Assembly: GCA_964519225.1 (NCBI GenBank)
Contig: CAZFJK010000004.1
Span: 1 to 60,257 of the forward strand
Reading direction: 5' to 3'
From: an uncultured Methanosarcinales archaeon
GTDB lineage: Archaea > Nanobdellota > Nanobdellia > Woesearchaeales > B54-G15
DNA length: 60,257 bases
Of this stretch, positions 53,401 to 56,400 are shown one piece after another. The translations under genes and the position numbers were made by a program. The notes below the pieces were generated by a model. That model was given only the letters and a program-made list of their open reading frames with translations, ran no database searches and was not told where the DNA came from. Position 1 is the first letter of the stretch; each line of letters starts with the position of its first letter.

Positions 53401-56400
53401 CTCTTCCATAAGGATCTAACCACGCAAGTAATTTTCCATCTCTATCTAAAATAACATCAAGATGATCAACTTTTTCAAGTAATGCACCAAACACTGTCTC
53501 ATCAACACCACCAAGCAATAGCTTAGCAATATCCAAGATCGGCTTAGGATAAACAAAGGTACCAAAATCATCAAATAAATCATCCAGTCTTATCTTAAAT
53601 TCTCCATAAACATCATAGTATTCATCTTGAGTCTTAATCAAAACAGCATCGGTTAATTTTCTTTTGTTGTGTAATTTATAATATATCGCAACTGCAACCT
53701 CGTCCCCAAAGGATGGCATTTCATCATCTTCTATTAATTCGATAGACGGATCTTCAACTACTTTCTTTGCAAGCAAATCAACAGTCAACCCCTCAGCTTG
53801 CTTAAGTTCTTTGTACGAATCAAAACACAACGCTATTTTCTTATAAGGATTCTTAACAGAACTCAACTCCCGTGCTATAGAAACTACCCTCTCTTTTACT
53901 GCATTTATCACATTATAAAGTGGGTTTTCTTCTTCCGCGCTATACGTTTCTTCCAAACCGGACGCACTTATTGTAACAGCATGGGCAGGACTTAATGAAA
54001 CAACCAAGCCAATCAAGAAAACACTTATGACTTTTGCATGTTTAGATGTTCGCTTTAAAAGTTTCAAACCTAACCCAGCCAATAAACCAAGTAGAGAAAG
54101 CAAACCTGCTACCTTGAAAGGAACCCCAACAAAAATAGTACCATAATAGTTTATTCCCAACAGTAACCCAACAGACATTCCAGCCAAAATAATAGGCAGA
54201 TAAACATATCTTGGCACTAACTTAGCTGTTCTTAATGCTTTATCAATGGCTTCTTTCTTCCAACCTTTCTTAAGCATAGCTCTCACAATTTCAGCTTTAG
54301 AATAAGTTCGCAATGCTTTATACACAAAACTTGTTCCAGGAACTTCAAGCACAGCCTTTCTTAATTCAAACGCTTTTTGCAAAGAAAACCATGTAAAAGC
54401 ACCACCAACAGCAATAAGCCAAGGAAGCTTCAGCAATGTGCAAATCGTTAAGAAATAATACCAAGAGAGTACAGTTAAACTACCAAGAACATAACTTGAA
54501 AGCTCAAAAAGAGGTTTTTTGGCCTTTTTGTTGTATATGAACGCTAGAAACGCTAAAACGGAAAGTAATGAATTTAACACATAATGGTATGGGAATTGGT
54601 AATCCGTCAAAGTTAGTCCTAATCCACTTAAAAATGAAATACCGCTTCCAACATAATAAATATTCTTCTTCTGCTTCTTACCAAGATAAAATAACAGACC
54701 AGCTAAGAAAAATAATAAAATCAACAAAGGATATTTTCCCTTAGACAAAGCACATAAGTTTCTATAGTTCCATGGATTTAATGCTATTTCCTCATTTGCT
54801 GCATTATATTCAGAATCGTCAAATGGGCTAATACAACCTGGATCATCAGGATAATCAATAAATCCATCACCATCATTGTCTAATGAATCGTTGCATTCGT
54901 ATAGTCCAATTTTAGGATAAAGAGAATGTCTTTTTAATGGATACGCTCCACGTAACAAAGTATCAAAGAATTCAACTAAATCTCTAGGTTCTGGCTTACC
55001 ATAAACTTCATCTATTGAAAGATCTTCTGTCTTAATATTAGCATAAATGCAGTACTTCACTCCAGGCGAATAAAGATGAACTTTTTCCTTGCTTGGATTT
55101 ACAATTTTAACATGCGTTTTTCCAGGAGCATTTCCAGTTAAATCAAATTCATCAATCAAAAGATGCTCGCATTCCTTCTTAAACGGCTTCATTACATCTA
55201 TTTCCAGCGGTGCAGCAACAAACAAATTAGTGTCTGGTTCATTTGGTTCACATTTACAAAGAACTTGATATGTTGGTAAAGGATGCTCAATTATAGGCTT
55301 GGTTGGAGGCAATGGACATTTCTTTCCAGGCCAAAACTCATAAAAAGACAAACCTAAATTCTCACATTCTTTTCTACAAGCCTTTTCGTTAGAAATGTCG
55401 TCTATATACTTATAACTTAAGGGCAACTCATAAGGAACAGAACAAACACAACATCCAGGCTGCACTATCCTATAACTCGGACCTCCGCCAGTCGGCCTTG
55501 TCGGTGGTGGCGATACTCCCTCCTTTACATATAGCTTAAAAGGCCCCGTGTCATTTATTGGACTTCCAATAGCAGTTATCCTCCAAGTGTAATTTCCAAG
55601 TTCAAGATAAACAATCCATTCTACTGTTCCGTTCACTCCTGTCTTTGTGTTATTGTAATAAACATCTGTTTCATTCCAAATAGTTAATGTAGCATTTGCA
55701 GTTCCAACATCGTCTGTGACTTTGGCGCTGAAGGTTACATTGCCAGGAGCAACTTCTGAATTATTTTCAGGACTTACATCAGTAATACTTGGCGGTGTTG
55801 CATCGAATACAAACACACCAGGCTCTGTACAGTTTATCCATCCAGCGCTATCGTTTGCGCATGCTTTTTCGGTATAAACACCGTTGGTAAGATTATCACC
55901 TGTTATGTTAATCCAGCAATAAACAATTTCACCATCAGAAGTAACATTGGCTCTGTTCATTGTAAAATTCTTACTTACGCTGTTATTCACTTCAAGCCAG
56001 CACTCATCTATTGCACTTCCTGTTCCGTTGAACGTAACATTAATAAAAAACCATGGATCTGAGCAGGAACTTTTATTCGTAACATTCGAGACTATTTGTT
56101 TTGTATCTATGTGTATAGTCTGGTCTTCAAGAGCATACGTATTTCCAGCAGAATCGTTGCATACTACGCTTATGTTATGATCGCCTTCAAGAAGTCCTGT
56201 TATGTTTACTGACGTGTTTGTACAGTTTTTAGCTATTACTGTTTTCTTAAGCTGATCATCAACATAAACTTTACATGTTCCGTTTTCTGCCATGTTATCA
56301 TAGTAATGGAACTTTATTGTGATGTTTGAAGAGTTATATGTTGTGCATGTAGGGAAATCATATTCTGTTATGCTTGGTTTTGTTGTGTCTATGTGTATAG

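What the first reader, a model, noticed from the sequence alone, without database searches (positions are those of the whole stretch)
53970..54740. Internal signal peptide and topology put the ~4,000-aa enzyme half outside the cell
Seen: eight hydrophobic helices, with basic loops after helices 1 (KKQKK), 3 (KKAKK), 5 (long K/R loop) and 7 (KLLKRTSKHAK). The positive-inside rule then makes helix 8 run in-to-out. Helix 8 reads KHAKVISVFLIGLVVSLSPAHA|VTISA, a typical SPase I signal with Pro and A-x-A. Inference: the polyprotein is cleaved into a membrane-anchored adhesin and a released effector. Enzymes needing ATP or NAD+ make little sense outside the cell unless they are delivered into another cytoplasm.
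Basis: partly seen in the sequence, partly recalled or inferred. Interest (0 to 1): 0.8.

Follow-up and report, generated by a model that had tools for sequence, protein, structure and literature searches.

The report
Exported enzyme arm of giant protein
A giant membrane protein of a tiny symbiont-like archaeon seems to push its 4,000-residue enzyme-carrying half out of the cell behind an internal signal-like helix, and this half has almost no sugar-attachment sites, which suggests it is an arm or effector aimed at another cell.

Summary
On the minus strand, residues 805-1056 of the 3,260-aa frame form eight hydrophobic helices. Basic loops follow helices 1, 3, 5 and 7: K+R is 26 on the predicted inside and 3 outside. 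Helix 8 has a signal-peptide layout ending AHA|V; the only close homolog has VQA|I.

N-glycosylation sequons number 72 in the roughly 1,300-aa ectodomain but 2 in the 4,015 aa after helix 8, where about 14 are expected. Control motifs are at expectation, and cytoplasmic ORFs of the genome show no such bias. The homolog shows the same purge (2 against 14.6). So does a distantly related giant of about 19,550 aa in another family (1 sequon in 18,811 aa; binomial P 3e-30), including a stretch with Kazal domains.

The later hydrophobic segment is a poor ninth helix. The conserved scaffold carries swapped C-terminal enzyme modules.

Cleavage at AHA|V is plausible but not shown; two archaeal signal peptidase I genes are present. 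Delivery into another cell is an inference.

Caveats: no AglB was found in this assembly, both structure models were uninformative, and only one close homolog exists.

Export of the C-terminal half: about 0.55.

The parts
58842..58928 (-). N-terminal signal peptide of the giant protein (first ~29 aa of piece A)
   Evidence: Hydrophobic peak at residues 8-26, Kyte-Doolittle 2.23. Sequence read.
57207..58928 (-). Piece A: FG-GAP-type ectodomain, ending in the 100-N assembly gap (57265-57364)
   Evidence: Pfam FG-GAP_3, E 1.4e-12. 22 sequons in residues 30-535. N run.
54731..57142 (-). Piece B residues 1-804: Ig-like repeats and a Cys-rich membrane-proximal ectodomain
   Evidence: Pfam Big_13, E 6.7e-14. 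50 sequons in residues 1-800 and Cys 3.9%. Secreted-like composition.
54677..54730 (-). Helix 1 (B805-822), out to in
54605..54664 (-). Helix 2 (B827-846), marginal hydrophobicity
   Evidence: Kyte-Doolittle 1.22. Helix in the AF2 secondary structure.
54533..54586 (-). Helix 3 (B853-870)
54428..54502 (-). Helix 4 (B881-905)
54377..54421 (-). Helix 5 (B908-922)
54209..54376 (-). Basic 56-aa loop between helices 5 and 6 (15 K/R); folds as three short helices; predicted cytoplasmic
   Evidence: It is the only confidently modelled part of the block (block-mean pLDDT 74-88).
54149..54208 (-). Helix 6 (B979-998)
54062..54142 (-). Helix 7 (B1001-1027)
53975..54031 (-). Helix 8 (B1038-1056): signal-peptide-like segment. 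The basic n-region lies just upstream, the h-region is 13-14 aa, and the c-region is S-P-A-H-A. Proposed cut A1055|V1056 (bases 53978|53977).
   Evidence: P0001 keeps P at -4 and A at -1 and has V at -3.
53309..53449 (-). YD/RHS-repeat-like stretch about 180 aa after helix 8
   Evidence: phmmer hits to repeat proteins P0002 and P0017 at query residues 472-519. I read their sequences as YD-repeat proteins. No Pfam hit at E<=1.
47429..53974 (-). Middle part after helix 8 (B1057-3238): K/E-rich, largely helical, sequon-poor
   Evidence: 2 sequons against 7.9 expected. Composition is cytoplasm-like after about B1400. 65% identical to P0001.
47786..47881 (-). Second hydrophobic segment (B3088-3119) followed by a basic stretch; candidate ninth helix, judged unlikely
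   Evidence: Kyte-Doolittle 1.56 here and 1.50 in P0001. The homologous module in the G043 giant has no TM-grade segment. No sequons downstream of it. The AF2 model is uninformative.
46518..47105 (-). PP2C phosphatase domain (SpoIIE family), piece C residues 105-300
   Evidence: Pfam SpoIIE, E 2.3e-8, 34.7 bits against a cut-off of 25. The motifs GDVMGHG, VSDGVLE and DDITLL are present.
43785..45647 (-). Variable module (C591-1211) with no counterpart in P0001; holds a HipA-like kinase match (44202-44717)
   Evidence: Homology map. HipA_2, E 7.9e-5, 22.5 bits, below the cut-off of 27. P0001 has an HD domain in this place.
41919..43784 (-). Diverged C-terminal tail (C1212-1833), about 30% identical to P0001 over C1212-1673, with a GG-x-ARR...SDVDL motif at 43335-43364 that I read as nucleotidyltransferase-like
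   Evidence: The motif name is recalled; no profile supports it.
41023..41919 (+). Convergent calcineurin-like metallophosphoesterase gene; its end overlaps the end of the giant gene. It sits in the same position next to P0001.
   Evidence: Pfam Metallophos, E 1.1e-17. Homolog beside P0001 is 37% identical, E 9e-63.
38871..39800 (+). ADP-ribosylglycohydrolase gene two genes away; relevance uncertain
   Evidence: Pfam ADP_ribosyl_GH, E 1.8e-76. Not found in the genome that holds P0001.

Best explanation
The eight-helix block has both ends outside the cell. Helix 8 has a basic N-flank, a short hydrophobic core and an acidic C-flank. It acts as an internal export signal, so the ribosome-Sec machinery threads the remaining ~4,030 residues (4,015 read plus 13 in the gap) across the membrane.

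This exported half has been kept almost free of N-glycosylation sites, although its composition is cytoplasm-like. It consists of a conserved helical scaffold, a PP2C phosphatase and a swappable C-terminal enzyme module. I read it as an unglycosylated arm or effector that acts on, or in, a neighbouring (host) cell. The sequon-rich FG-GAP/Ig part would be the adhesin.

Cleavage at AHA|V by one of the two archaeal signal peptidases I would release it. Given export, I put cleavage at about even odds; the alternative is that helix 8 stays as an anchor.

Shown: the helices, the charge pattern and the sequon purge with its replicates. Inferred: export, cleavage and delivery.
For: (1) Topology. The N-terminus has a signal peptide. 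It is followed by 72 sequons in ~1,306 aa with FG-GAP and Ig-like domains. There are eight helices. K+R is 26 inside against 3 outside, and 28 against 4 in P0001. The tail after H8 is acidic.

(2) H8 has an n-h-c layout with P at -4, A at -3 and A at -1. P0001 has V-Q-A. Two archaeal SPase I genes score over the curated cut-off.

(3) Sequon purge after H8. There are 2 N-x-S/T in 4,015 aa against 13.8 +/- 3.5 in local shuffles, and 0 of 300 shuffles reach 2 or fewer. The controls are normal: S/T-x-N 12 against 13.8, N-x-x-S/T 14 against 13.9, N-x-A/G 17 against 18.3.

(4) Genome baselines. In 295 cytoplasmic-like ORFs of the genome the sequon equals its controls (361 against 371, 411 and 366). 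In 31 secreted-like ORFs it is enriched (138 against 76, 73 and 78), and in the giant's ectodomain the counts are 72 against 19, 12 and 19. In a wider set of 445 non-membrane ORFs, 0 of 5,000 resampled subsets with the same expectation had 2 or fewer.

(5) Replicates. P0001 has 2 against 14.6, at different positions. The two non-homologous variable tails each have 0. The G043 giant shares only one module with this protein (E 1e-10). It has 58 sequons in its first 740 aa, then 1 in 18,811 aa, against 92, 116 and 103 for the controls. Binomial P is 2.8e-30 against G043's own cytoplasmic-like baseline. The zone holding its Kazal domains has 1 against 15, 20 and 20. G043 and the genome holding P0001 both encode AglB.

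(6) A YD-repeat-like stretch follows H8.

(7) The scaffold is conserved at 65-70% but the enzyme module is swapped: HipA-like here, HD domain in P0001. This pattern is typical of exported polymorphic effectors (PMC3482391, abstract seen in the listing).

(8) Precedents. SPase I cuts the extracellular domain off polytopic LtaS in S. aureus (PMC12260438, abstract). Giant proteins are reported to pass between symbiotic bacteria (10.64898/2026.03.19.712371, start of abstract only).
Against: - PP2C, kinase-like and nucleotide-using domains are cytoplasmic in every characterised system I know of, and the C-half has cytoplasm-like composition.
- The closest described giants of DPANN archaea are read as ectodomain-TM-cytosolic ATPase (PMC10266531, passages).
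- No AglB (STT3) was found in this 97%-complete assembly or in its congener G001. It was found in 37 of 39 other relatives. The enzyme that would impose the sequon selection is therefore not shown here.
- The sequon result was read after the fact. I had expected either enrichment or baseline, not a purge.
- H2-H5 are marginal helices.
- No SignalP or DeepTMHMM could be run, and both AlphaFold models were of low confidence.
- AxA conservation rests on one homolog, and the motif is not rare by chance.
- No translocation or release machinery was identified.
- The G043 giant has hydrophobic segments upstream of its kinase/PP2C part, so an inside location of enzymes there is not excluded, yet that part is sequon-free too.
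Confidence: 0.55

Rival explanations
1. Receptor or anchor with a cytoplasmic C-half, of the SPEARE type. The adhesin is outside, the helix block is a membrane anchor, and the whole 4,000-aa K/E-rich part with PP2C and kinase-like modules stays in the cytoplasm as a signalling or scaffold region. Helix 8, or one of the marginal helices, does not insert as predicted. The lack of sequons has some other cause, for instance avoidance of a motif recognised by the protein's own kinase.
For: The domain types are cytoplasmic. Composition is cytoplasm-like. There is an analogy with nanohaloarchaeal giants, whose ATPase is read as cytosolic (PMC10266531). H2-H5 are marginal. The neighbouring metallophosphoesterase has no signal peptide and keeps its position in both loci. 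The authors of the giant-gene preprint warn that TM predictions in giant proteins are unreliable (10.1101/2023.11.21.568195, passages).
Against: Any odd helix count puts K-rich loops outside; the even count gives 26 against 3. H8 itself has a basic N-flank and an acidic C-flank. The sequon purge is specific to N-x-S/T. It is absent from cytoplasmic ORFs, including K/E-rich ones (145 observed, 163.8 expected), and it recurs in independent sequence. In G043 the sequon-free zone includes Kazal domains, which are disulfide-rich and extracellular in known cases (their location is recalled).
Confidence: 0.25
2. Nine-helix topology. Helix 8 exports only the middle ~2,030 aa. The hydrophobic segment B3088-3119, followed by a basic stretch, is a ninth helix that returns the chain. 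The PP2C and the variable enzymes would then sit in the cell's own cytoplasm, as in membrane-bound PP2C phosphatases.
For: The segment is as hydrophobic as H2-H5 (Kyte-Doolittle 1.56). Its flanks fit an out-to-in orientation, with 2 K/R in the 25 aa before and 11 in the 60 aa after. It lies in the best conserved stretch (88% identity). The PP2C starts about 230 aa behind it.
Against: After this segment there are 0 sequons in both proteins (binomial P 0.013 and 0.0019), which a cytoplasmic location does not explain. P0001 replaces I and W by T and H. The homologous module of the G043 giant has no segment reaching Kyte-Doolittle 1.6. A lone helix with two Asn is a weak stop-transfer; this rests on a hydrophobicity scale recalled from memory.
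Confidence: 0.08

Closest known systems
Giant membrane-anchored 'SPEARE' proteins of Nanohaloarchaeota (PMC10266531; passages read)
   Same: A small-genome archaeon with a protein of several thousand residues. There is an N-terminal Sec signal, a large Ig-like adhesive ectodomain, a membrane-spanning part and then a large non-adhesin C-terminal region. A role at the symbiont-host contact is proposed.
   Different: Those proteins are described with a transmembrane domain followed by a cytosol-facing VirB4/TraG-like ATPase. Here there are eight helices (an even count), no ATPase was found by Pfam, and there are a PP2C plus swapped enzyme modules. The C-half shows signs of export. There is no sequence homology: the only relatives found are P0001 and one module in the G043 giant.
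Signal peptidase I processing of polytopic LtaS in Staphylococcus aureus (PMC12260438; abstract only; other details recalled)
   Same: A prokaryotic multi-pass membrane protein whose extracellular C-terminal domain is cut off by SPase I after the last helix.
   Different: That is a bacterial protein with a single ~400-aa enzyme domain that works outside the cell. Here the protein is archaeal, the released part would be ~4,030 aa with cytoplasm-type enzymes, and cleavage is not shown.
Polymorphic toxin systems (PMC3482391; abstract in listing)
   Same: A conserved N-terminal and central part is followed by an abrupt switch to non-homologous C-terminal enzyme modules between close relatives. There is a YD-repeat-like stretch. 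The adjacent gene is conserved in position but diverges fast (37% identity against 65-70%).
   Different: There is no known trafficking, pre-toxin or releasing-peptidase domain. No toxin family is confirmed. The adjacent gene is convergent and is a phosphoesterase, not a typical immunity gene. No orphan cassettes were seen.
Giant 'Archaeovorin'-type proteins of Omnitrophota (bioRxiv 10.1101/2023.11.21.568195; passages read)
   Same: Giant proteins of small predatory or symbiotic cells in which HEAT repeats and cytoplasm-type enzymes are predicted to be extracellular. The authors suspect either overlooked helices or true export, which is the same dilemma.
   Different: Those proteins are bacterial and unrelated in sequence. 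No glycosylation-site argument is available there. Autocatalytic peptidase domains are proposed for their processing.
Membrane-bound PP2C phosphatases of the SpoIIE/RsbU type
   Same: A PP2C domain of the SpoIIE Pfam family with its metal-binding motifs, downstream of a multi-helix membrane region.
   Different: In those proteins (recalled) the PP2C is cytoplasmic and close to the helices. Here it lies ~2,300 residues behind an even-numbered block, in a sequon-purged chain.

Membership tests
Sec-type cleavable signal peptide (SPase I substrate) | Basic n-region, hydrophobic h-region shorter than a full TM helix, polar c-region | tested here: met
   LLKRTSKHAK (4 K/R), then a 13-14-aa uncharged core, then S-P-A-H-A. 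The AF2 helix ends before S-P-A-H-A, in a low-confidence model.
Sec-type cleavable signal peptide (SPase I substrate) | Small uncharged residues at -3 and -1, and no Pro from -3 to +1 | tested here: met
   A-H-A|V here and V-Q-A|I in P0001. The rule is recalled. The chance rate is not negligible (29 of 638 internal cores).
Sec-type cleavable signal peptide (SPase I substrate) | Actual cleavage, or a calibrated predictor score | not testable with these tools
   No SignalP is available here and there are no proteomic data. SPase I genes are present (2 matches over the cut-off).
Even-numbered helix block with both ends outside | N-terminal side extracytoplasmic | tested here: met
   Signal peptide, FG-GAP and Ig-like domains, and 72 sequons against 19, 12 and 19 for the control motifs.
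Even-numbered helix block with both ends outside | Positive-inside distribution consistent with eight helices | tested here: met
   K+R is 26 inside and 3 outside; 28 and 4 in P0001.
SPEARE-type giant proteins | Signal peptide plus an Ig-like giant ectodomain | tested here: met
SPEARE-type giant proteins | TM domain followed by a cytosolic VirB4/TraG/HerA-type ATPase | tested here: not met
   No P-loop ATPase family in Pfam, NCBIfam or PADLOC scans of the C-half. The helix count is even.
Polymorphic toxin system | Conserved N-terminal part with variable C-terminal modules between relatives | tested here: met
   B561-3238 and C1-590 are 65-70% identical to P0001. C591-1211 has no counterpart. 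The modules differ: HipA-like against HD domain. This rests on n = 2 proteins.
Polymorphic toxin system | Recognised toxin domain and a cognate immunity gene directly downstream | tested here: inconclusive
   HipA_2 is below its cut-off and no ADP-ribosyltransferase profile matched. The neighbour is a convergent phosphoesterase. The ADP-ribosylglycohydrolase is nearby only in this window.
PP2C phosphatase (SpoIIE family) | Profile match over the curated cut-off, with metal-binding Asp motifs | tested here: met
   34.7 bits against a cut-off of 25. The motifs were located; their role is recalled.
RHS/YD-repeat protein | Array of YD repeats forming a shell, and an RHS core | tested here: not met
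   Only one ~47-aa stretch matches repeat proteins. No Pfam RHS hit at E<=1.

The most novel reading that the evidence does not exclude
Small symbiotic archaea of this order may make a class of giant proteins in two parts. A glycosylated adhesin head is followed by a very long arm that is exported by Sec and kept strictly free of glycans. The arm carries phospho-signalling and other cytoplasm-type enzymes, and it is kept free of sequons because it has to be threaded, unfolded, through a narrow passage into the host cell. That would be an archaeal contact-dependent effector-delivery device with no described counterpart. In the window's protein, an internal signal peptide would start the export of the arm.
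Probability: 0.3. Interest if true: 0.9.

Novelty: new variant of a known kind. Interest (0 to 1): 0.75.

Why it matters
It is still unknown what the giant proteins of DPANN-type archaea and other ultra-small symbionts do, and on which side of the membrane their enzyme domains sit. Published topologies rest on helix predictions that the authors themselves distrust.

Archaea glycosylate Asn-x-Ser/Thr only outside the cell, so the sequon count gives an independent, sequence-only read-out of exposure. Here it separates three regimes: enriched in the adhesin, neutral in cytoplasmic proteins, and purged in the enzyme arm.

If the purge does mean 'exported but must stay glycan-free', several things follow:
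- Cytoplasm-type enzymes of these giants would work outside the producer, most plausibly in the host.
- An internal signal peptide would be the way a multi-pass anchor and an exported arm are made from one gene.
- The test can be applied at once to all archaeal giant proteins.

Tried and rejected
- AlphaFold2 of the helix block (2-sequence alignment; pLDDT 48.9) and of the second hydrophobic region (pLDDT 38.6). Both are too poor for packing or burial, so only the helix counts were used. No fold search was run on them.
- ESM Atlas on piece C: no usable hit.
- phmmer of piece C against PDB: three hits at E 0.16-0.26, so nothing.
- PADLOC: 0 families. NCBIfam: only sub-threshold adhesin repeats.
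- ADP-ribosyltransferase reading of C725-850 (Y-R-G, S-x-S and E-x-E motifs recalled): no Pfam family at E<=10, and the region is absent from P0001. It is kept only as a motif-level guess.
- More homologs for a conservation test. The searches were: near lengths (1 hit, P0001, among 7,998 scored); shorter lengths (0); piece C (itself only); the representative library (16 hits, none covering the helices); 40 relatives (0); genome and metagenome contig scans (only P0001's contig, which appears in both); viral contigs (0); and 400 genomes of the phylum (2 weak module hits).
- A home-made signal-likeness filter. It picks H8 among very few internal segments but also misses most true N-terminal signals (3 of 180), so it is not calibrated.
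- The ninth helix is judged unlikely.
- A Rosetta-stone link between the neighbouring phosphoesterase and the phosphoesterase domain fused into the G043 giant: no specific similarity.
- Low cysteine content after B2400 (8 in 2,671 aa against 1.34% baseline). It lies within the lowest decile of ordinary cytoplasmic ORFs, so it is only a weak hint.
- PF00717 was the wrong family for archaeal signal peptidases. It was replaced by TIGR02228.
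Full report
**What is there**

The finding lies on the minus strand inside one giant gene that the assembly splits into three open frames:
- A: 57207-58928, 573 aa.
- B: 47360-57142, 3,260 aa.
- C: 41916-47396. It is read from 47417, the first base below the gap, giving 1,833 aa.

Two runs of N separate the frames, 57265-57364 and 47418-47427. The only close homolog, P0001, reads through the second gap, where 13 residues are missing. Identity on both sides of that gap is 88%. 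The first gap falls in repeated Ig-like units.

The genome is 869 kb in 53 contigs, 97% complete and 36.6% G+C. The window encodes a thermosome, a proteasome alpha subunit, exosome subunits and RuBisCO, so this is a small-genome archaeon. Earlier notes of this scan call it a Woesearchaeota-type DPANN archaeon. I did not test that label.

**The observation**

Residues B805-1056 hold eight hydrophobic segments. AlphaFold's secondary structure gives the same eight helices plus three short helices in the long loop, but model confidence is low (pLDDT 48.9).

The loops after helices 1, 3, 5 and 7 hold 26 K/R. The other loops and both outer flanks hold 3. P0001 gives 28 and 4.

Helix 8 has four K/R just before it, an uncharged core of 13-14 residues, then S-P-A-H-A|V. 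The next 25 residues carry five acidic and no basic residues.

Helices 2-5 are only marginally hydrophobic. Even so, any reading that drops an odd number of them puts lysine-rich loops outside.

The N-terminal side is certainly outside:
- It starts with a signal peptide.
- It carries FG-GAP and Ig-like domains.
- It has 72 N-x-S/T sequons in about 1,306 aa.

**Signal-peptide likeness**

The layout fits the usual rule of small residues at -3 and -1 with a helix breaker at -4 (the rule is recalled). P0001 is 68% identical over the block (72% over the wider 541-aa query); it keeps P at -4 and A at -1 and has V at -3. The genome has two archaeal-type signal peptidase I genes over the curated cut-off.

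This evidence is compatible with cleavage but weak:
- 29 of 638 internal hydrophobic cores of the genome share the short core, basic flank and small-x-small motif.
- There is only one homolog to test conservation.
- I could not run SignalP.

**A new line of evidence: the sequon count**

I used N-x-S/T density as a proxy for exposure to the oligosaccharyltransferase, expecting either enrichment (outside) or baseline (inside). The result was neither.

After helix 8 there are 2 sequons in 4,015 aa. Shuffling within 100-aa blocks gives 13.8 +/- 3.5, and 0 of 300 shuffles reach 2 or fewer.

The deficit is specific to N-x-S/T:

| Motif | Observed | Shuffle mean |
|---|---|---|
| N-x-S/T | 2 | 13.8 |
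| S/T-x-N | 12 | 13.8 |
| N-x-x-S/T | 14 | 13.9 |
| N-x-A/G | 17 | 18.3 |

Across the genome the same counts separate three regimes:

| Set | N-x-S/T | S/T-x-N | N-x-x-S/T | N-S/T |
|---|---|---|---|---|
| 295 cytoplasmic-like ORFs | 361 | 371 | 411 | 366 |
| 31 secreted-like ORFs | 138 | 76 | 73 | 78 |
| Giant's ectodomain | 72 | 19 | 12 | 19 |
| Giant after helix 8 | 2 | 12 | 14 | 7 |

Further checks on the baseline (a wider set of 445 non-membrane ORFs):
- 0 of 5,000 resampled sets of these ORFs with the same expectation had 2 or fewer sequons.
- K/E-rich ORFs among them are normal, with 145 observed and 163.8 expected.

P0001 shows the same purge, 2 against 14.6, at non-homologous positions.

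The purge is at least as strong behind the second hydrophobic segment: 0 sequons in both proteins, binomial P 0.013 and 0.0019. It also holds in the two variable tails, which are not homologous to each other: 0 in 1,243 aa and 0 in 965 aa.

**An independent replicate**

I searched 400 genomes of the phylum with B2600-3238. Two weak hits turned up, both inside giant open frames. One is in an unpublished genome (G341); I did not use it.

The other, in G043 (another family of the same order), shares one module of about 280 aa with the window protein (25% identity, E 1e-10). Its gene reads 7,512 + 12,039 aa across a 10-N gap.

Its features:
- It starts with a signal peptide.
- It has 58 sequons in its first 740 aa.
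- It then has a single sequon in 18,811 aa, against 92, 116 and 103 for the control motifs.
- The binomial P is 2.8e-30 against a baseline from 60 cytoplasmic-like ORFs of G043 itself, where the counts are 74 against 95, 92 and 96.

Its sequon-free part holds several domain types:
- Kazal domains at two distant places, with the zone holding them at 1 sequon against 15, 20 and 20.
- HEAT repeats.
- Further on, FHA, metallophosphoesterase, protein kinase and SpoIIE PP2C domains.

Kazal domains are disulfide-rich and extracellular in known cases (recalled). A sequon-free state therefore occurs in an evidently exported stretch, and its border with the sequon-dense head is not a membrane crossing. 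G043 and the genome that holds P0001 both encode AglB.

**What the purge means**

Neutral evolution in the cytoplasm does not produce it. The simplest cause is exposure to the glycosylation machinery together with selection against any glycan.

The purged part is also cytoplasm-like in composition. A log-odds classifier trained on this genome places the ectodomain on the secreted side. It places the first ~400 aa after helix 8 at the border and the rest on the cytoplasmic side. Taken together, this points to a polypeptide that is exported but built to work in a cytoplasm.

**The later hydrophobic segment**

B3088-3119 is followed by a basic stretch and could in principle return the chain. Against this:
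- It is weaker in P0001.
- The homologous module of G043 has no comparable segment.
- The sequon purge continues behind it.
- The AlphaFold model of the region was uninformative (pLDDT 38.6).

**Domain content and variability**

Pfam supports only the PP2C above its cut-off (34.7 bits). A HipA-like kinase match is below its cut-off (22.5 bits against 27). My readings of an ADP-ribosyltransferase motif set and of a nucleotidyltransferase motif are recalled patterns without profile support.

The homology map against P0001:

| Window region | P0001 region | Identity |
|---|---|---|
| B561-3238 | 192-2880 | 65% |
| C1-590 | 2894-3490 | 70% |
| C591-1211 | no counterpart | n/a |
| C1212-1673 | 3925-4321 | 30% |

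In the place of C591-1211, P0001 carries an HD domain (25.6 bits). A conserved scaffold with swapped terminal enzyme modules is the pattern of polymorphic effectors (PMC3482391, abstract seen in the listing).

A convergent metallophosphoesterase gene overlaps the end of the giant gene in both loci, at 37% identity. Its role is open.

**Comparison with what is known**

- The nearest described objects are the giant SPEARE proteins of nanohaloarchaea. They are read as ectodomain, TM and then a cytosolic VirB4-like ATPase (PMC10266531, passages). The window protein shares the head but not the ATPase or the odd topology.
- Signal peptidase cutting an extracellular domain off a polytopic protein is known for LtaS (PMC12260438, abstract).
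- The authors of the Omnitrophota giant-gene preprint met the same puzzle of cytoplasm-type enzymes predicted outside and suspected missed helices (10.1101/2023.11.21.568195, passages).
- A 2026 preprint reports transfer of giant proteins between symbiotic bacteria (start of abstract only).
- The 15 listed of 187 papers matching at least 3 of the terms sequon / under-represented / N-glycosylation / archaea held no report of sequon depletion in archaeal giant proteins. The searches on DPANN giant proteins and on giant genes did not show one either. I saw only listings and the passages named above.

**Caveats**

- No STT3/AglB was found in this assembly, whether by two Pfam models, a motif scan or tblastn with two relatives' proteins. 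None was found in the congener G001 (81% complete) either. It was found in 37 of 39 other relatives.
- The strong sequon enrichment in this genome's own secreted proteins argues that glycosylation operates or did so until recently.
- The giant gene is 65-70% identical to P0001, while the thermosomes of the two genomes are only 44-48% identical. The gene, and its sequon pattern, may therefore have been acquired by transfer, or P0001's contig may be mis-binned.

**Verdict**

| Reading | Probability |
|---|---|
| Export of the C-half behind helix 8 | about 0.55 |
| Whole C-half cytoplasmic | about 0.25 |
| Nine-helix return to the cytoplasm | about 0.08 |

Cleavage at AHA|V, given export, is about even odds. 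Delivery into a partner cell is the most attractive reason for a glycan-free, cytoplasm-like exported arm, but it is inferred, not shown.

Noticed in passing
G043:C21:1802-60521 (loci L016-L019), minus strand: A super-giant gene of about 19,550 aa (7,512 + 12,039 aa across a 10-N gap) in another family of the same order. It has a signal peptide and a 740-aa head with a sequon about every 12 residues. Kazal domains, HEAT repeats, FHA, metallophosphoesterase, protein kinase and SpoIIE PP2C follow, with a single sequon in the remaining 18,811 aa.
   Followed up: partly
whole genome G000 and congener G001: No oligosaccharyltransferase (STT3/AglB) was found in this 97%-complete assembly or in the 81%-complete congener. 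It was found in 37 of 39 other relatives of the order. Yet secreted proteins here are clearly sequon-enriched. Either the gene is unassembled or the enzyme is very divergent.
   Followed up: partly
L006/L009 (contig JAHKLH010000018.1, genome G041): The only close homolog (65-70% identity over ~3,300 aa) sits in a 1.8-Mb MAG labelled Candidatus Njordarchaeota. That MAG's thermosomes are only 44-48% identical to the window's. The flanking phosphoesterase is 37% identical. This suggests horizontal transfer of the giant gene or a mis-binned contig.
   Followed up: partly
window 38871-41919 (+): Three hydrolase genes in a row converge on the end of the giant gene: an ADP-ribosylglycohydrolase, a PHP-domain protein and a calcineurin-like phosphoesterase. 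Only the last is kept beside the homolog. Whether they counteract or assist the giant's enzyme modules is open.
   Followed up: partly
window 54209-54376 (-): The basic 56-aa loop between helices 5 and 6 is the only part of the block that AlphaFold models with confidence (three short helices; block-mean pLDDT 74-88). It looks like a small autonomous cytoplasmic domain.
   Followed up: no
window 54791-54865 (-), B760-784: An acidic Cys-containing motif (G-F-I-D-Y-P-D-D-P-G-C...) just before helix 1 matches many otherwise unrelated proteins in the representative library (13 of 16 hits align only to it). NCBIfam's acidic double-disulfide repeat also matches it, below its cut-off.
   Followed up: no
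window 57265-57364 and the flanking Ig-like repeats: The 100-N gap falls between near-identical Ig-like repeat units, with the same sequence on both sides. The true number of repeats, and the length of the adhesin, is therefore unknown.
   Followed up: no
window 2874-4139 (-): A RuBisCO large-subunit gene lies in this small archaeal genome. I took it to be form III, which was not tested.
   Followed up: no
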